A stretch of DNA of 64,000 nt from a virus (lineage: Duplodnaviria; Caudoviricetes). Each line of letters begins with the position of its first letter. The stretch's first letter is position 1. The position numbers and the translations under genes are program-made. Location: IMG/VR virus record IMGVR_UViG_3300028603_000018, positions 1 to 64,000 of that record; one strand, 5' to 3'. Under the pieces are notes generated by a model. It was given only the letters and a program-made list of their open reading frames with translations, was not told the origin of the DNA and ran no database searches. Below are positions 5,658-43,606 of the stretch, piece by piece.

Positions 5658-8600
5658 GTGATTGAAAAAATTATTAAGCGTGATGGACGAGAAGAAAAGT
5701 TCGATGCTGAGAAAATTGTAAGGTGGGCTGAATGGGCCTCCCCAATGGAATCTATGAAACGACAGTGGCCTGTTGTAGTAACAAAGGTGGCCTCTCGTTT
5801 AGATCGTATTGTAACGAGTAAGAAGCTCCAGGAAGAGTTAATTGAAGGGTTCTTAGATCTAGATAACTATAGTGCTTATTTAGTCGCTGGACGCCTGTAT
5901 TCAGCTCACCTACGTAAAGAGATTTTTGGTAGTAATGAAGTACCTACTATTAAAGAAGTGCAAACTCGATTAATTCAAGATGGATTATTACGTGATCTTG
6001 GTTATAGTGATCAAGAGTACCAAATGCTTGAAGAGATTATTGATCATGAACGAGACTTTGATGTATTGCATTTCTCTTTACACCATATTCGACTCAAGTA
6101 CGCATTACGTAATAAAGTAAGTAAAAAAGAGTATGAAACTCAGCAGTTTGTTTACATGCGTATGGCAATGACTGTTAATGAGTTTAAAGAACCTATTGAG
6201 AGGATTGCTTTAGTTAAGAGCCTCTATGATAAGCTCTCTCAAAAGAAACTCTCTTTACCTACACCTAACTATGTAAACTTTGGCACTTACTTACGTAGCT
6301 ATGCTTCTTGCAACCTCTATATGACTGACGACAATTTAGAGAGTTTAGCTATTGGTGATCATATTGCTTATCGTCAAACAGCAGCTAGTGCAGGTAATGG
6401 TTTTAACATCATGACTCGTTCAGCCGATGATCCTATTCGTAATGGATTATTCCCTCATCAAGGAAAACTCCCTTACTATGCTGCTGTAGGTAAAGCTATT
6501 AAAGCTAACTTACAAAATGGTCGAGGTGGTGCAGGTAATGCTTTCTTCCCAGCATTTGATCCTGAAGCTAATAAGATCTTAGGCTTACGTGATCCGCGCT
6601 CTACTGGTGTGGCAAGTAATAGAGATCTCCATTACACTTTTATGGATAATCCTTTCTTTGCTAAGAAAGTGGCAGCTGGAGAGAAAGTCTTTGTATGGAA
6701 CTGCTATACTGCTCCTAAGCTCAATGAGTTATTCTATTCTGATGACCTAAAAGGTTTTATTGAAGAATATAATCGTTTAGAAAATGATCCTAGTTTCCAT
6801 AAAGAATATATTGATACTCGTGAACTCTTCTATAGGTTGAAAGACGCAGAGTTTGGTAGTGGTACGTATTATGAAATGGACGCTTATGAAGTCAATCGCC
6901 ATACTCCATTAAAAGAACCTATTCATAGTAGTAATTTGTGCGTAGCACCAGAAACGCAATTACTGACTGATCAAGGTCATGTTACAATCCGTGATAAAGC
7001 TGGTCAGACAGTTACTATCTGGAACGGTAAAGAATGGTCTGAAGTAGAAGTCGTTAAGACAGGTGAGAACCAGAAGTTACTACGCGTTGTATTATCTGAC
7101 GGTAAAGATTTAACATGCACCCCGTATCACAAGTGGTACGTGATGGATAGTTACCAAGGTAAAGAGCGCGAGGTCCGTACTCATGAGCTTGAAGAAGGAA
7201 TGAAGCTTATTAAGCTAGAGACTCCTGTCATTGAAGGTGACTGGGAATTTAAAAGAGCTTATGTTAATGGCTTCTATACAGGTGACGGAACTCAACTTTA
7301 TAATGGTACAGGAAAAATTTACTTATATGGTGAAAAGGCGGCACTTGCTCCTCTGTTTAATCATGATAAGGAATGGCGTAAAAACGGAAACAGATTAGAA
7401 TCCGAGTTCCGTGATCTGTATCCTAAATATACTGTACCGACAGTGAAGTATACTGTAGCTAGTCGTTTAGAATGGCTCGCGGGATGGCTAGATGCAGATG
7501 GCTGCATCTATCGAAATGGAGACAATGAGTCGATTACTGCTTCTTCTACAGATAAAGAATTTCTTAAAGAAGTACAGTTAATGCTTCAAACTCTAGGCAT
7601 TGAATCTAAAGTAACGCTTCTGTATGAAGCTGGAATAAAAAGACTTCCCGCTAATGATGGAACTGGAATCTATAAGGATTTCTATTGCTTAGCCACTTAT
7701 CGACTTCTTATTTCTAGTTGGAATAGTCAGAAGCTATTAGAGCTAGGATTAAAATTACATCGACTAGTGATAGAAAAACGCAAAGTTCAGCGTAGTGCTT
7801 CAGGATTCGTTTATGTGAAGAATGTATTAGATGTTGGTCGAGTAGATGATACTTACTGCGTAAAAGAACCTAAGCGTAATAGAGCAGTCTTCAATGGTAT
7901 TCTTACAGGTCAATGCGTAGAAATCACTGAGCACACAGCTCCTTACTATGACATGAAGGATCTTTATTCTGAAGAAGATCATGGTAGAGGTGAGATTGCG
8001 TTATGTAATCTTGGTGCTGTTAACCTATCTAAGATTGAATCAGATAAAGATTACTTCAACATCATGTATGAAGCTTTGAAAGTTATTGATTATACAATCG
8101 ATCATGCTGATTACACCTTCCCTCACTTAAGCTTTACTTCTAAGCAACGTCGATATGCTGCTGTTGGTATTATGGACTTTGCTCATGTCATGGCTGAATC
8201 CCACTACTCTTATTCAACAGAAGAGGGCAGGCAGTTCATGCACGAAGTAGCGGAACGTCATATGTACTTTGCTATTAAAGCCTCTCTTGCTATTAGTAAA
8301 GAACGTGGTGTAGCTCCTTGGATTCATAAGACTAAATGGGTAGACGGCTGGACACCTGTCAAAACGTATAACCGAGGTCTTGATAGTATCCAAGACTTTA
8401 AATACCGGTATGACTGGGAAGCTCTATCTGAAGAGATTAAAGCAAATGGTGGTATTGCTCATAGTCTGTTAGTTGCTTATATGCCTGGGGAAGCTTCTAG
8501 TAAAGCAGTAGGTGCTGCTAACTCTATTTATCCTGTTAGACAGTTAACGCTAGTTAAAACAGATAATAAGATCACAACTCGCTGGGCTGCACCTAATGGT

Positions 8601-8903
8601 GATAATGAGTTCTATAAATACGAATCTGCTTGGGACATCCCTACGAAAGATCTGATTATCATGTATGCTATCTTCCAGAAGTTTACTGATCAGTCTATTA
8701 GTGCAGATAGGTATAAGCGTGTCCCTGAAGGTAGTACGATTAATACCGATGAATTAATTGAAGAATATCTCCTGGCTAAGAAGTTAGGTGTTAAAACCTT
8801 CTATTACCAAAACTCTAACACAGCAAGTAATGTCGATATTAATGTGGTCGAGCGTATTACTGATGCTGTTGATGAAGAGGTTTGTGAAGGTTGTACAATG
8901 TGA
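5658..8903 (+). CDS. nrdA: Class Ia ribonucleotide reductase alpha subunit, intein-containing
   Basis: N-terminal ATP cone (IIKRDGREEKFD), LPTP, ASC, SSNL|C-V-E active site split by an intein, KTFYY, C-terminal CEGC. Confidence 0.96.
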   Translation: MIEKIIKRDGREEKFDAEKIVRWAEWASPMESMKRQWPVVVTKVASRLDRIVTSKKLQEELIEGFLDLDNYSAYLVAGRLYSAHLRKEIFGSNEVPTIKEVQTRLIQDGLLRDLGYSDQEYQMLEEIIDHERDFDVLHFSLHHIRLKYALRNKVSKKEYETQQFVYMRMAMTVNEFKEPIERIALVKSLYDKLSQKKLSLPTPNYVNFGTYLRSYASCNLYMTDDNLESLAIGDHIAYRQTAASAGNGFNIMTRSADDPIRNGLFPHQGKLPYYAAVGKAIKANLQNGRGGAGNAFFPAFDPEANKILGLRDPRSTGVASNRDLHYTFMDNPFFAKKVAAGEKVFVWNCYTAPKLNELFYSDDLKGFIEEYNRLENDPSFHKEYIDTRELFYRLKDAEFGSGTYYEMDAYEVNRHTPLKEPIHSSNLCVAPETQLLTDQGHVTIRDKAGQTVTIWNGKEWSEVEVVKTGENQKLLRVVLSDGKDLTCTPYHKWYVMDSYQGKEREVRTHELEEGMKLIKLETPVIEGDWEFKRAYVNGFYTGDGTQLYNGTGKIYLYGEKAALAPLFNHDKEWRKNGNRLESEFRDLYPKYTVPTVKYTVASRLEWLAGWLDADGCIYRNGDNESITASSTDKEFLKEVQLMLQTLGIESKVTLLYEAGIKRLPANDGTGIYKDFYCLATYRLLISSWNSQKLLELGLKLHRLVIEKRKVQRSASGFVYVKNVLDVGRVDDTYCVKEPKRNRAVFNGILTGQCVEITEHTAPYYDMKDLYSEEDHGRGEIALCNLGAVNLSKIESDKDYFNIMYEALKVIDYTIDHADYTFPHLSFTSKQRRYAAVGIMDFAHVMAESHYSYSTEEGRQFMHEVAERHMYFAIKASLAISKERGVAPWIHKTKWVDGWTPVKTYNRGLDSIQDFKYRYDWEALSEEIKANGGIAHSLLVAYMPGEASSKAVGAANSIYPVRQLTLVKTDNKITTRWAAPNGDNEFYKYESAWDIPTKDLIIMYAIFQKFTDQSISADRYKRVPEGSTINTDELIEEYLLAKKLGVKTFYYQNSNTASNVDINVVERITDAVDEEVCEGCTM
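6939..7913 (+). mobile_element. Intein (325 aa) with LAGLIDADG homing endonuclease, ending in Gln
   Basis: Starts CVAPETQLLT; block B CTPYHKW; endonuclease motifs NGFYTGDG and LAGWLDADG; ends DTYCVKEP...FNGILTGQ before the catalytic Cys. Confidence 0.93.
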
Positions 8904-21435: not shown

Positions 21436-21628
21436 TAGGAAAAGACAAAGTGTTAGGTTATAGGTATCTAGATGAATCAGGAAATCCTATTATCTCAAGC
21501 ATGTCTTCATAATTCTTTCTGAGATAAAGTGCGTTATTGAAGAGAAAGATAACTTTGAAGAACTGATTAAAGGCCATATAACTAAATATGTCCTTTACAC
21601 TCCTTCAGGATTAACTCATTCAAAACCT

Positions 21629-21967
21629 ATGAAAGATCCAATTCCAGAAGAGACATATACTATCTCTTTCCCTACTGAAGGTGAATTTTCATATAGTGTA
21701 AAGATTAACGATAAGTTTACCTATATTCCTACTCCTTTTGTATTTATGGATCGATTTAATAAAGTAGGTGGATATAGACTCGTTATTAAAGAGAAACTAG
21801 TAAAGACTGGAAAGTCTTTTCTCTCGCTGACTAAAGAGAAAAGTTACTTTGAGCTTTATAAAGTGATGGAAGTAGATGGTATTTCTTATATCTCTGAAAA
21901 TAAACTAGAGAGTTTAGAATTATCTGGAGATCATCTTGATATAATGAAAAGGTATAAATACATTTAA
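21629..21967 (+). CDS. Hypothetical protein
   Basis: 112-aa ORF. Confidence 0.6.
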   Translation: MKDPIPEETYTISFPTEGEFSYSVKINDKFTYIPTPFVFMDRFNKVGGYRLVIKEKLVKTGKSFLSLTKEKSYFELYKVMEVDGISYISENKLESLELSGDHLDIMKRYKYI

Positions 21968-32587: not shown

Positions 32588-33286
32588 ATGCGTGAGATAT
32601 TGATAGCAGGAGGAATTGAGACTGGACTTGATCCTTACTGGAATAATGTGTCTCTGTTATTACCTTTATCTGGCGATGACGGATCTAAACCTCTTTTAGA
32701 TGCAACAGGAAAAGCTATTACTTACCATGGTTCAGCACAGATAGTAGAGACTCCTTCTAAATTTGGAGAGGGTAGTCTTTCTGCATTAACAGCTTCAGAC
32801 TATCTATCCTTTCAAGGCGGGTCTCCTTTTAATTTCAGTAATAATGATTTCACTATTGAATTACAGTTATATGTAAGCTCATCTTCAACAGGTTCTATTC
32901 AAGCCATATATGAGGATCGTGTCAATGCAGCGACCGATCTTGTCTGTGCACTTACTTATACTTCTAATAAACTAACTATGTGGATGTGGATCTATGGTGT
33001 TCATGTTACAGCAGTTGGTTCAGGTCTTACCGTACCTCCTAATACATTTAATCACTTAGTCTGGTGTCGATCAGGTAATACTATTAGAACATTTATAAAT
33101 GGTGAAATTAATCAAACCTCCACTTATACAGGAACAGCAGGTGGTGGACCAACAGTGCGTTTATTAGGAAGTACTTATAGTCAGCCAGTAAATGCTTATG
33201 CTAATGATATTAGAGTAACTAAAGGTATAGCTCGCTATATAAGTTCTTTTGATCCTCCAACAGAACCTTTCCCAATTAATAGTTAA
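32588..33286 (+). CDS. LamG/concanavalin A-like domain protein, probable virion accessory protein
   Basis: DPYWNNVSLLL, SKFG, DFTIE, NHLVWCRSG.TIRTFING, DIRVTKGIARY..SFDPPTEPF. Confidence 0.88.
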   Translation: MREILIAGGIETGLDPYWNNVSLLLPLSGDDGSKPLLDATGKAITYHGSAQIVETPSKFGEGSLSALTASDYLSFQGGSPFNFSNNDFTIELQLYVSSSSTGSIQAIYEDRVNAATDLVCALTYTSNKLTMWMWIYGVHVTAVGSGLTVPPNTFNHLVWCRSGNTIRTFINGEINQTSTYTGTAGGGPTVRLLGSTYSQPVNAYANDIRVTKGIARYISSFDPPTEPFPINS

Positions 33287-33305
33287 TATAAAAAAGGATT
33301 TAGAA

Positions 33306-34003
33306 ATGAGTAAAGAATTAATGTTAATCCAATCCCTAGTTGGTGGAGGGGGGTAACGAATGGCGATATTGTATTTTACGGTGAGTTAGGTCCGAATTTT
33401 TTAACTTATGAAGATCTAAGTCTCCATTTTAATGTTGGGGAAGGGCAGCTTAATACTGGAGTAGGGGTAAATCACTGGCTTCGGTTCACTATTGATGATA
33501 AAGAAATTATAATTAGTAAGGTTAGTGTTAGACGTTCTTTAACATATAAACATCTATACTCGAAAGGCTTAATCTACGGTACTGATGATGTAGGTCTTTA
33601 CACCCCTGATGGGTTAGTTGGTGTAAATCAATTAAAGACTATTGTTATTCGAGGACAGGCTTACAAATGTCGGTTAATTAGAGGCTGTGATGGCGTTTCT
33701 GGGCTTACGACTGGTAATAGTGGTAATGATCCTGTAGGTACATACAACTCTGAATGGAGTCGATTATTCTATCCAATAGTTACAGATAAGAAAGACGTTG
33801 TGTCTTACCAAGGTCCTATGATTGGTAATTATACCGACGATAGTTTAGAAATGAATGTCCGATATAGCTGGTGTCAGGAAGTTCTAAATAGCGGACCTAC
33901 TACTCAGTCAGTCTTAAGAGGTGGTTTTAGTGTAAGTAGAATGGTTTGGGCAGGTAATGGGAATTACAACGTATGGCGACCATGTCTTGAAAAGATTGAC
34001 TAA
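33306..34003 (+). CDS. phiKZ-type virion structural paralog family protein, frameshifted at G6 (33348-33353)
   Basis: RBS and ATG at 33306 give MSKELMLIQSLVGGGG-stop; the -1 frame is open from 33353 to 34003 (FYGE..HWLRF..KGLIYG..YKCRLIRG..SEWSRLFYP..SWCQE..WRPCLE). Confidence 0.75.
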
Positions 34004-42694: not shown

Positions 42695-43606
42695 ATGAGT
42701 AAAGAATTGCTAATTAGTTCTACTCCCCCCCCCCATGAGTCAAGTCAATGGCGGCCTATACCACTAACGCCGCCTTTAGACGAAAGCTATAATAGTGTTA
42801 TGATTAGTGTATTAGGTGATTTATATTGTTACGGGAAAGCTACCTTAACCCCTCCTTATCGATTTAGCTCTCATTACCTTATTAATCCTTCAACACTCAC
42901 AACAACTCCTTTAGCTGTAAGTGATGTACGTACTGATCACGGAATGATAAATATTGGTGATTATATATATTTAATAGGTGGAAGTAATTCGAACGGCGCA
43001 GCTTTTAATAAAGTAGAGAGGTATGATATTATAAGTAACACTTTCTCTACTTTATCAAGTTTACCAAATAATGCCAGTTACGTTAAAGCTGGACTATTTG
43101 AAGGTAAAATATTTGCTATTAGTGGTGCAGGGGACAGAAAGGTTTACGTTTACGATATTGTAAACGATACATGGGAGAGTCGTACAATTCCGACTGCATT
43201 TGACTTTATTTATCGTAATATTGCTTATGTCGATGGCTACTTTTATTGTTTTGGCGGAAGAACACCTCTGGCCGTCGTATCTGATTCCGCAACTCGGTAC
43301 TCAGTGGAAAACGATACATGGGAATATTTGAATCCCGCCTCTAATATGCCAGCTAACTTTTTAGCTTCTACAGCAGTATTAGGTGATAATATATACATCT
43401 TCGGTGGCTTCACAGATAACGGTATTACTACTAACTCGTTTTACTGTTATAAAATAAGCTCAAATGAGTTTGTACTTATTGAAACTGAAGTTTCTCCTGC
43501 AAAACGTAGTTATAGTACAATGACAACTTTAGACAATAAAATTTATTTGTACAATGGTAGAGACGATACACTAATTTATGGCGACCTTTGGGAATTCACT
43601 CCCTAA
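42695..43606 (+). CDS. Kelch-repeat beta-propeller protein with C10 tract near the 5' end
   Basis: IYLIGG..VERYD, FYCFGG..W, IYIFGG, IYLYNG..DLWEF repeats. Confidence 0.9.
   Translation: MSKELLISSTPPPHESSQWRPIPLTPPLDESYNSVMISVLGDLYCYGKATLTPPYRFSSHYLINPSTLTTTPLAVSDVRTDHGMINIGDYIYLIGGSNSNGAAFNKVERYDIISNTFSTLSSLPNNASYVKAGLFEGKIFAISGAGDRKVYVYDIVNDTWESRTIPTAFDFIYRNIAYVDGYFYCFGGRTPLAVVSDSATRYSVENDTWEYLNPASNMPANFLASTAVLGDNIYIFGGFTDNGITTNSFYCYKISSNEFVLIETEVSPAKRSYSTMTTLDNKIYLYNGRDDTLIYGDLWEFTP

What the first reader, a model, noticed from the sequence alone, without database searches (positions are those of the whole stretch)
33306..34003. Virion-family gene held out of frame by a G6 tract: candidate phase-variable or programmed-frameshift locus
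Seen: a good RBS and ATG give only 16 codons (MSKELMLIQSLVGGGG-stop), while the -1 frame starting at the end of the G run (33348-33353) is open for about 216 codons with no ATG before 33800 and carries motifs of the phiKZ-type virion paralog family. One extra G gives a full protein of about 232 aa, and the downstream frame shows no decay. Inference: slipped-strand switching or -1 slippage controls whether, or how much of, this virion component is made. A homopolymer assembly error remains possible.
Basis: partly seen in the sequence, partly recalled or inferred. Interest (0 to 1): 0.8.

Follow-up and report, generated by a model that had tools for sequence, protein, structure and literature searches.

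The report
Switched-off adhesin gene in giant phage
A giant phage gene for a lectin-like virion protein is split by a run of six Gs just after a short N-terminal tag, and it belongs to a family of about ten tagged genes whose repeats at that spot differ between assemblies, so it is most likely a reversible on/off switch now set to off.

Summary
ATG 33306 gives 16 codons (MSKELMLIQSLVGGGG) and TAA. G6 lies at 33348-33353. The -1 frame is open to 34003 with no start codon before 33800. One extra G gives 232 aa, the length of an intact metagenome homologue.

The body is undecayed. It folds confidently (pLDDT 94.6) as a C-type-lectin-like domain of the phiKZ-type "virion structural protein" family.

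The window is the first 64 kb of a 244-kb jumbo-phage contig mis-binned in a 65% GC MAG. Ten genes there share the tag MS(K/R)(E/D)xL(I/L) on four body types. Five carry a G/C run of 6-10 nt at codons 11-17 (P about 2e-11), and two of these are out of frame.

Protein look-ups show the same phage in three assemblies. Three family repeats (C10, G7 and a 7-nt repeat) differ in reading-frame state between them, while the bodies stay 100% identical. This locus is off in all three, and no full-length allele was found.

No frameshift-stimulating RNA was found. Best reading: a contingency locus working by DNA slippage, in its off phase (0.6). Rivals: recent pseudogene, programmed -1 slippage, assembly error.

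The scan already reported this gene family from another window of the same genome. Reads were not available.

The parts
33293..33298 (+). Shine-Dalgarno-like AAAGGA, 7 nt upstream of the ATG. The gene follows the upstream gene after a 19-nt gap, so it is probably co-transcribed.
   Evidence: sequence; one search found no convincing promoter or terminator between the two genes
33306..33356 (+). Leader reading frame: MSKELMLIQSLVGGGG followed by TAA. It encodes the conserved N-terminal tag MS(K/R)(E/D)xL(I/L) plus a Gly linker.
   Evidence: Synonymous codon differences among the ten leaders show selection at the protein level.
33348..33353 (+). G6 homopolymer (GGG GGG in the leader frame), the putative slippage tract. 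G7 (or G4) joins leader and body. G6 ends the leader frame at the adjacent TAA.
33353..34003 (+). Body frame (-1 relative to the leader): 216 codons plus TAA, encoding a C-type-lectin-like domain of the phiKZ-type virion structural protein family (phrog_1062). The frame is open from 33314.
32588..33286 (+). Upstream neighbour, 232 aa: a Laminin_G_3 / baseplate-wedge-like domain with a related leader, MREILIAGG. It is intact and has no tract.
42695..43606 (+). Family member in the same window: MSKELLISSTPPPH..., a 303-aa Kelch propeller with a C10 tract at 42725-42734 (codons 11-14). It is in frame here. In the 210,701-bp assembly it is called only from internal Met36, with the rest 100% identical.

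Best explanation
The locus is one member of a set of simple-sequence contingency (phase-variable) genes of an uncultured phiKZ-like jumbo phage, caught in its OFF phase.

The gene encodes a 232-aa peripheral virion protein in three parts. The first is a short N-terminal tag (MSKELML...) shared by about ten genes of the phage. The second is a Gly linker. The third is a C-type-lectin-like ligand-binding domain.

The linker is written as GGG GGG, codons that are rare in this 36% GC genome, and this creates a G6 run. Slipped-strand mispairing by the phage replisome adds or removes a G. G7 (or G4) fuses tag and domain and gives the full protein. G6 terminates translation at the adjacent TAA after 16 codons and leaves the domain frame without a start codon.

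Because several tagged genes carry such tracts (G6, G7, C9, C10, G10, plus a 7-nt repeat), a phage population would contain virions with different combinations of these putative adhesins.

Shown here: the anatomy, the family-wide placement of tracts, the fold and homology, the differences in reading-frame state of three other family members between assemblies, and the OFF state of this member in all assemblies.

Inferred: that this G6 still switches, that the protein sits on the virion periphery and binds host surface glycans, and that the tag is the attachment peg.
For: (1) Anatomy. Read-through by one extra G restores the canonical layout of leader, linker and F-x-G-E motif. It gives 232 aa, the same length as the intact metagenome homologue L016. 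It aligns end to end with L016, L017, the in-genome paralogue at C90:108233(-), and the Ralstonia phage FLC1-1B gp119 and RsoM3USA proteins.

(2) Ten genes of the 244-kb contig start with MS[KR][ED]x[LF][ILVM] on four body types: Kelch, Gly_rich_2, Laminin_G_3 and phrog_1062. Five have a G/C run of 6-10 nt at codons 11-17, on either coding strand, so the tract reads as Gly or as Pro. All three runs of 9 nt or more in the contig (0.06-0.08 expected) are at this position.

(3) The two out-of-frame tracts need opposite corrections: +1 G here, and -1 C in the C9 gene at C90:137510. That fits random slippage better than one programmed shift.

(4) The same phage occurs in three assemblies (244,062, 249,759 and 210,701 bp). 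Between them the C10 Kelch gene is called at 303 versus 268 aa, and the G7 Kelch gene at 314 versus 291/267 aa. The Gly-rich gene is split into 94 + 190 aa in two assemblies and is an intact 279 aa in the third. It is broken by three copies of the heptamer ATTGACT, and two copies restore the frame. The remaining residues are 100% identical.

(5) A related phage in metagenome Ga0182744 (locus L021) has a G6 after the leader of a homologous gene, also needing +1 G.

(6) Large ORFs of up to 2,179 aa are intact and there is no general excess of split genes, so the assembly is not indel-ridden.

(7) Precedent in the literature. [quoted passage not shown] 2021, doi 10.1016/j.celrep.2021.109214, cited in PMC10579305). 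Runs of 6 or more bases in T2/T4 mutate at about 3e-4, and an A6 run in rIIA reverts about 10,000 times faster than a point mutation (bioRxiv 10.1101/2025.10.21.683753).

(8) The fold is C-type-lectin-like, as in the phage receptor-binding protein Mtd, the DGR variable protein TvpA and the Bdellovibrio fibre tip.
Against: No ON allele of this gene was found. All three assemblies give only truncated 61/67-aa calls, and no full-length protein of 90% identity or more exists in the 5.8-billion-cluster collection.

G6 is the shortest tract of the family, and runs of that length occur at chance frequency elsewhere in the contig.

Tract lengths in the other assemblies were inferred from gene-call lengths, not read from DNA.

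The three assemblies may share samples or reads. No raw reads were available.

Two family members are broken without a homopolymer (C90:119109(-), and the heptamer repeat in C90:117327). Some members may therefore simply be decaying.
Confidence: 0.6

Rival explanations
1. Recently inactivated pseudogene. One redundant member of a large paralogous adhesin family lost a G (G7 to G6). It is now fixed in the off state and will decay, and no adaptive switching is involved.
For: The gene is OFF in all three assemblies, and no ON allele exists in the databases. Other members are broken by non-homopolymer lesions. The C9 member is also OFF wherever it was seen. A G6 run is no rarer than chance genome-wide.
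Against: The 216-codon body has no stop in an AT-rich genome and keeps every conserved family residue, and it folds at pLDDT 94.6. All three frame breaks that separate a leader from its body lie within the first 20 codons, not scattered along the roughly 230-300-codon genes. Rare GGG/CCC codons are strongly enriched exactly there. Sibling repeats demonstrably differ between assemblies.
Confidence: 0.18
2. Programmed -1 slippage during expression. The G6 allele is the functional form. A fraction of ribosomes (P-site tRNA-Gly slipping GGG to GGG next to the UAA stop), or the phage RNA polymerase, shifts frame on the G run and makes a low, set amount of the 232-aa protein.
For: G6 with the same -1 requirement recurs in a homologous gene of a related phage (L021) and is stable across the three assemblies. 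The stop codon directly follows the run, and an SD-like GGAGG overlaps it. From general knowledge, phage lambda G-T frameshifting also slips tRNA-Gly on G GGA AAG.
Against: There is no canonical in-frame X XXY YYZ heptamer. There is no downstream hairpin or pseudoknot: MFE is -5.6 to -6.4 kcal/mol with z +0.6 to +1.1. No Rfam frameshift element was found. In L021 the zero frame runs six more codons, so the stop-adjacent argument fails there. The closest intact homologues (L016, L017, the in-genome paralogue) are in frame without a tract. The other out-of-frame family member needs a +1 shift, not -1.
Confidence: 0.13
3. Sequencing or assembly error. The true genome has G7 and the gene is simply intact.
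For: This is a metagenome-derived contig of unknown platform. Homopolymers are the classic site of indel errors. The other tract differences between assemblies could in principle be assembler noise at long runs.
Against: Independent gene calls from JGI, NCBI and Logan/ENA on three assemblies all show the truncated gene, including an assembly that differs at other repeats and at a 7-nt repeat that is not error-prone. No other long ORF in 244 kb is split at A/T runs of up to 14 nt. A six-base run is short for systematic miscalling.
Confidence: 0.05

Closest known systems
Hypermutable polyG tracts in receptor-binding-protein genes of Campylobacter phages (Fletchervirus; Sorensen et al. 2021, Cell Rep, doi 10.1016/j.celrep.2021.109214)
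   Same: A G homopolymer inside a phage gene for a host-recognition-type protein. Tract length decides whether the full protein is made, and populations are mixed.
   Different: Here the tracts sit at a fixed place, directly behind a shared 6-7-residue N-terminal tag, in a multi-gene family with four unrelated body folds. They are written as G or C on the coding strand. The phage is a phiKZ-like jumbo phage with a 36% GC genome. This member's tract is only 6 nt, and no length variation was seen at it.
Phage contingency loci in T2/T4 (agt, rIIA; Gomez, Barrick and Waters 2025, bioRxiv 10.1101/2025.10.21.683753)
   Same: Runs of 6 or more bases give reversible frameshifts at about 1e-4 to 1e-3. 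An A6 run behaves as a true switch.
   Different: Those runs are scattered, mostly A/T, and under-represented in tail-fibre genes. Here G/C runs are concentrated at one structural position of an adhesin-like family.
phiKZ gp83 / PhiPA3 gp080-083 / 201phi2-1 gp452, gp456 'virion structural protein' paralogues (phrog_1062, phrog_16120, phrog_3589)
   Same: Same domain by sequence (E 5e-26) and by predicted fold (TM 0.73-0.82). The stand-alone members share the M-x-E-L-L-L type N-terminus.
   Different: The published relatives examined (Deimos-Minion gp166, PhiEaH1, PhiPA3 gp081, FLC1-1B gp119, RsoM3USA) are in frame and have no long G/C tract after the leader.
C-type-lectin-fold receptor binders: Bordetella phage BPP-1 Mtd (1yu0), Treponema TvpA (2y3c), Bdellovibrio Bd2740 fibre tip (8oks), Legionella Lcl C-terminal domain (8q4e)
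   Same: Same overall fold class (Z 5.9-7.6, 103-144 residues aligned), which is used for ligand binding at the tips of fibres.
   Different: Sequence identity is only 7-15% and Z is below 8. Diversity here comes from on/off switching of whole genes, not from DGR mutagenesis of the binding face.

Membership tests
SSR-mediated contingency (phase-variable) locus | Simple-sequence repeat inside the coding region, near the 5' end | tested here: met
   G6 at codons 15-16
SSR-mediated contingency (phase-variable) locus | A change of one repeat unit toggles between the full-length product and early termination | tested here: met
   G6 gives 16 codons and TAA. Reading one extra G gives 232 aa that align with intact homologues.
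SSR-mediated contingency (phase-variable) locus | Repeat-length polymorphism at this locus within or between populations | tested here: inconclusive
   Only OFF-type calls (61/67 aa) in the three assemblies, and no full-length allele. The DNA of the other assemblies could not be fetched. Sibling loci do differ.
SSR-mediated contingency (phase-variable) locus | Non-random placement or enrichment of the repeat, implying selection for mutability | tested here: met
   5 of 11 leader genes have runs of 6 or more in codons 8-19 (P 2.4e-11). GGG/CCC make up 17 of 38 codons there against 8.1% genome-wide (P 1.5e-9). All three runs of 9 or more lie there.
SSR-mediated contingency (phase-variable) locus | Measured elevated, reversible switching rate with a phenotype | not testable with these tools
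   Needs reads or a cultured phage
Programmed -1 ribosomal frameshift site | In-frame slippery heptamer X XXY YYZ | tested here: not met
   The zero frame reads GGA GGG GGG TAA, so the heptamer is A GGG GGG. Only single P-site slippage GGG to GGG is possible.
Programmed -1 ribosomal frameshift site | Downstream stimulatory RNA structure | tested here: not met
   MFE -5.6 to -6.4 kcal/mol, z +0.6 to +1.1 against shuffles. No Rfam match.
Programmed -1 ribosomal frameshift site | Two-frame arrangement conserved among homologues | tested here: inconclusive
   L021 shares G6 and the -1 requirement. L016, L017, the in-genome paralogue and the published phage homologues are single-frame.
phiKZ-type virion structural protein family (phrog_1062 domain; PhiPA3 gp081 / phiKZ gp83 relatives) | Sequence and fold homology across the whole domain | tested here: met
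   phrog_1062 E 5e-26. 1,870 HMM hits. BFVD TM 0.73-0.82 at probability 1.00.
phiKZ-type virion structural protein family (phrog_1062 domain; PhiPA3 gp081 / phiKZ gp83 relatives) | Presence of the protein in virions | not testable with these tools
   Relatives are annotated as virion structural proteins. Nothing could be measured for this phage.
C-type-lectin-like (CTLD/CLec) fold | Structural superposition on solved CTLD-fold proteins over most of the domain | tested here: met
   Nearly all of the top 50 VIA-align rows are CTLD/FGE-type folds: Z 5.0-7.6, 96-144 residues aligned, rmsd 2.8-5.2. Z below 8 means this shows fold class only.
C-type-lectin-like (CTLD/CLec) fold | Carbohydrate or Ca2+ binding motif, and actual ligand binding | not tested
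   No motif analysis or assay was done

The most novel reading that the evidence does not exclude
The phage runs a combinatorial 'plug-in adhesin kit'. About ten small binding proteins of four folds share one N-terminal peg for the same virion socket. Each is gated by its own repeat directly behind the peg. Tract length (G6 slow, C9-C10 fast) sets a hierarchy of switching rates, so every burst releases virions with different receptor-binding repertoires. On this reading the G6 gene is a slow-switching reserve member rather than a dead one.
Probability: 0.35. Interest if true: 0.8.

Novelty: new variant of a known kind. Interest (0 to 1): 0.62.

Why it matters
Phase variation through homopolymer tracts is textbook for bacterial surface genes. 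In phages it is documented only for Campylobacter phages and, very recently, T-even phages. Here a nucleus-forming-type jumbo phage appears to apply it systematically to a whole family of lectin-like, Kelch, LamG and glycine-rich virion proteins that share one N-terminal tag.

If confirmed, this gives a simple genomic signature (tag, then tract) for finding switchable host-recognition genes in uncultured giant phages. It would also explain 'broken' genes in their assemblies. It points to population-level host-range bet-hedging in a phage group now popular for therapy and for studies of defence evasion.

For annotation, the practical message is that this locus should be recorded as one 232-aa gene with a frameshift at a G tract. 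It should not be recorded as a 67-aa ORF.

Tried and rejected
- **Alternative start in the body frame.** The only candidates before the tract are ATT 33317 and ATC 33332, which lie 19 nt or more from the SD-like site. Rejected.
- **Read-through from the upstream gene, which is in the same frame.** Two stops, TAA 33284 and TAA 33311, intervene. Rejected.
- **Upstream gene as a paralogue of the body.** It is not. It is a Laminin_G_3 domain.
- **DNA-level relatives.** None in INPHARED phages. No close protein relatives in IMG/VR. Exact-pattern searches for other copies of the tract region found nothing in viral contigs or genome contigs. There was no match in 60 genomes related to the MAG.
- **Closed or unreachable sources.** The metagenome records behind L016-L021 are not held for whole-record searches.
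- **First fold.** A five-sequence alignment gave a poor model (pLDDT 49). It was replaced by a 59-sequence alignment.
- **Foldseek against the PDB.** Nothing at E of 1e-3 or better. VIA-align wide was needed.
- **Suspected extra frameshift at a T7 run (C90:195650).** The upstream ORF ends naturally and the downstream ORF has internal starts, so it is not a convincing split gene.
- **phiKZ and Goslar cryo-EM papers.** They do not place gp83-family proteins in the virion.
- **Full-length G7 protein.** It could not be handed to look-up tools, because no reference exists for a -1 read-through. It was built only inside a script for alignment.

Full report
**What is there.**
An SD-like AAAGGA precedes ATG 33306.
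- The frame reads MSKELMLIQSLVGGGG and stops at TAA 33354-33356, directly after a G6 run (33348-33353).
- The -1 frame is open from 33314 to TAA 34001-34003. It has no ATG, GTG or TTG before GTG 33800.
- Re-reading one G joins the two frames into 232 aa.

**Where it lies.**
- The window is the first 64 kb of contig C90: 244,062 bp, 35.8% GC, about 85% coding. It sits in a MAG whose other large contigs are about 65% GC, so it is a mis-binned phage genome.
- The window also encodes a phiKZ-type major head protein, ribonucleotide reductase, helicases and a DNA polymerase.
- The contig ends lie in collagen-like GXY repeats.

**What the gene encodes.**
- The body matches phrog_1062 (E 5e-26) and two 'virion structural protein' PHROGs.
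- By tblastn it matches stand-alone proteins of Ralstonia phages FLC1-1B and RsoM3USA, PhiPA3 gp081 (annotated as similar to 201phi2-1 gp456), and many Erwinia jumbo phages.
- A profile search found 1,870 relatives. These include giant proteins with up to eight tandem copies of the domain, one of them in this contig.
- With a 59-sequence alignment the body folds at pLDDT 94.6.
- The model matches BFVD models of phiKZ-like virion proteins at TM 0.73-0.82.
- Among solved structures it matches almost exclusively C-type-lectin-like folds: Legionella Lcl C-terminal domain Z 7.6, TvpA Z 6.7, Bdellovibrio Bd2740 tip Z 6.3, phage BPP-1 Mtd Z 5.9, and many animal CTLDs. These Z values support the fold class only.
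- The window sequence carries the family residue at all 16 invariant or nearly invariant columns.

**The leader belongs to the protein.**
- Intact homologues start with the same kind of N-terminus, followed 8-15 residues later by the F-x-G-E motif. Examples are L016 MKELILGASGWTAEGVEFLGELD (232 aa), L017, the in-genome paralogue MSKELLIKTVDGGDRIKVPYMYHG (226 aa), FLC1-1B gp119 MFELLLSTRLVASGPDRSMTFLGEV, and most of 64 stand-alone relatives.
- The one-G read-through aligns with them from end to end.

**The family context decides the reading.**
- Scanning C90 for long G/C runs showed that every run of 9 nt or more, and four of the five runs of 7 nt or more, sit at codons 11-17 of an ORF.
- These ORFs, and five more, start with MS[KR][ED]x[LF][ILVM]. 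The members are:

| Position in C90 | Repeat | State in this contig |
|---|---|---|
| 33306(+) | G6 | OFF |
| 42695(+) | C10 | ON |
| 83990(-) | no tract | intact |
| 108233(-) | no tract | intact |
| 109247(-) | G7 | ON |
| 117327(+) | G4AG5 | broken downstream by a 7-nt repeat |
| 119109(-) | no repeat | leader out of frame |
| 137510(+) | C9 | OFF, needs one C fewer |
| 151725(+) | no tract | intact |
| 197848(+) | G10 | ON |

- The bodies are of four kinds: Kelch propellers, Gly_rich_2, Laminin_G_3 and the phrog_1062 domain.
- The leaders differ by synonymous codons, so the peptide itself is under selection.
- In codons 8-19 of the family, GGG/CCC make up 17 of 38 Gly/Pro codons, against 8.1% genome-wide (P 1.5e-9). 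Five of 11 genes have a G/C run of 6 or more there (P 2.4e-11).
- A G6 as such is not rare in the contig (15 runs against 11-13 expected). Runs of 9 or more are rare (3 against 0.06-0.08 expected).
- The tract is written as G in some genes and C in others. This argues that the homopolymer, not a Gly or Pro peptide, is what is kept.

**Variation between assemblies.**
- I could not fetch the DNA of other assemblies. Exact-sequence cluster look-ups were informative instead.
- The phage's proteins occur on contigs of 244,062, 249,759 and 210,701 bp.
- In the 210,701-bp assembly the C10 Kelch gene is called only from internal Met36 (268 versus 303 aa). The G7 Kelch gene is called from internal starts (291/267 versus 314 aa). 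All remaining residues are identical.
- The Gly-rich gene is split 94 + 190 aa in C90 and in the 249,759-bp contig by three copies of ATTGACT. In the 210,701-bp contig it is an intact 279-aa protein reading ...GETLTIDFNAEHVG..., exactly what two copies give.
- So three repeat sites of the family are in different states in otherwise identical genomes.
- For the G6 gene, all three assemblies carry only the 61/67-aa truncated call. No full-length allele exists among 5.8 billion protein clusters.
- The C9 gene is likewise seen only as a truncated call.
- In a related phage (65-75% nt identity, different synteny), a homologous gene has MKEQLITSPDGRG, then a G6, and then a body in the -1 frame. That is the same configuration as here (L021).

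**Mechanism.**
- The best-supported reading is slipped-strand mispairing at DNA level, with this member in its OFF phase.
- Short tracts switch more slowly, which fits its constancy across assemblies. The literature shows that six-base runs in T-even phages still mutate at about 3e-4 and can act as switches.
- PolyG tracts gate receptor-binding genes in Campylobacter phages (reference found).
- Programmed -1 slippage is not excluded. P-site tRNA-Gly could slip on GGG GGG next to UAA, and an SD-like GGAGG overlaps the site.
- It lacks the usual supports, however. There is no canonical heptamer, no downstream structure (z +0.6 to +1.1) and no Rfam element. The sibling OFF gene needs the opposite shift.
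- Assembly error is unlikely. The OFF state recurs in assemblies that differ elsewhere, and the contig shows no general excess of split ORFs despite A/T runs of up to 14 nt.
- A recent pseudogene remains a real rival, because no ON allele was seen and two siblings are broken by other lesions.

**Function.**
- Inference only. The lectin-like fold, the company of Kelch, LamG and Gly-rich modules (PHROG hits to baseplate-wedge and tail-fibre families), and the virion annotation of relatives suggest a peripheral virion protein that binds host surface glycans.
- The shared tag would then be the attachment element.
- Published cryo-EM atlases of phiKZ and Goslar do not yet place this family.

**Relation to earlier work in this scan.**
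- After I had found the family and its tracts independently, the findings index showed that a follow-up on another window of the same genome had already described 'tagged, switchable adhesins' whose repeats differ between samples (e1-5708722).
- My cluster look-ups test that claim and agree with it for three sites. They add that the G6 member is OFF in every assembly.

**Verdict.** The locus is a new variant of a known kind, a phage contingency locus. The open point is whether this short G6 still switches, and only reads or a cultured phage can settle that.

Noticed in passing
window 42725-42734 (gene 42695-43606, +): C10 tract at codons 11-14 of a 303-aa Kelch-propeller gene with the same MSKELLI leader. 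It is in frame here. In a 210,701-bp assembly of the same phage the gene is called only from internal Met36 (268 aa, otherwise identical), which implies a different tract length there.
   Followed up: partly
window 21472-21967 (+): A leader-like ORF, MNQEILLSQACLHNSF-stop, is followed in the +1 frame by an open frame of 163 codons (21476-21967) with no start for 51 codons. There is no repeat at the junction. It is unclear whether this is another split gene or chance.
   Followed up: no
window 5658-8903 (+): The 1,081-aa ribonucleotide reductase large subunit matches its PHROG in two blocks (residues 1-458 and 662-1080), leaving about 200 residues unmatched in between. This may be an intein or an inserted domain.
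   Followed up: no
G000:C90:117580-117615 (locus L023, about 481-516): The heptamer ATTGACT is present three times in tandem and splits a Gly-rich tagged gene (94 + 190 aa). The 210,701-bp assembly encodes the intact 279-aa protein expected from two copies. This is a non-homopolymer repeat switch in the same family.
   Followed up: yes
G000:C90:119109-118284 (-) (locus L023): The leader MSKEILISSHEIEEW-stop is out of frame (+1) with an intact 267-codon Kelch-like body, and there is no repeat at the junction. A weak TTG start exists in the body frame.
   Followed up: partly
L021:2463-2671 (metagenome contig Ga0182744_1001976, near its end): A related phage has a homologous gene with the leader MKEQLITSPDGRG, a G6 tract, and a body in the -1 frame. 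This is the same OFF configuration as the window gene. The contig ends 170 nt after the tract.
   Followed up: partly
G000:C90:1-60 and 244003-244062: Both contig ends lie in collagen-like Gly-X-Y repeat coding sequence. The assembly probably broke inside one repetitive gene of a circularly permuted or complete genome.
   Followed up: no
G000:C90, whole contig: There are unusually long T runs: five T10, three T11 and one T14, against a longest A run of 8. Their positions were not examined.
   Followed up: no
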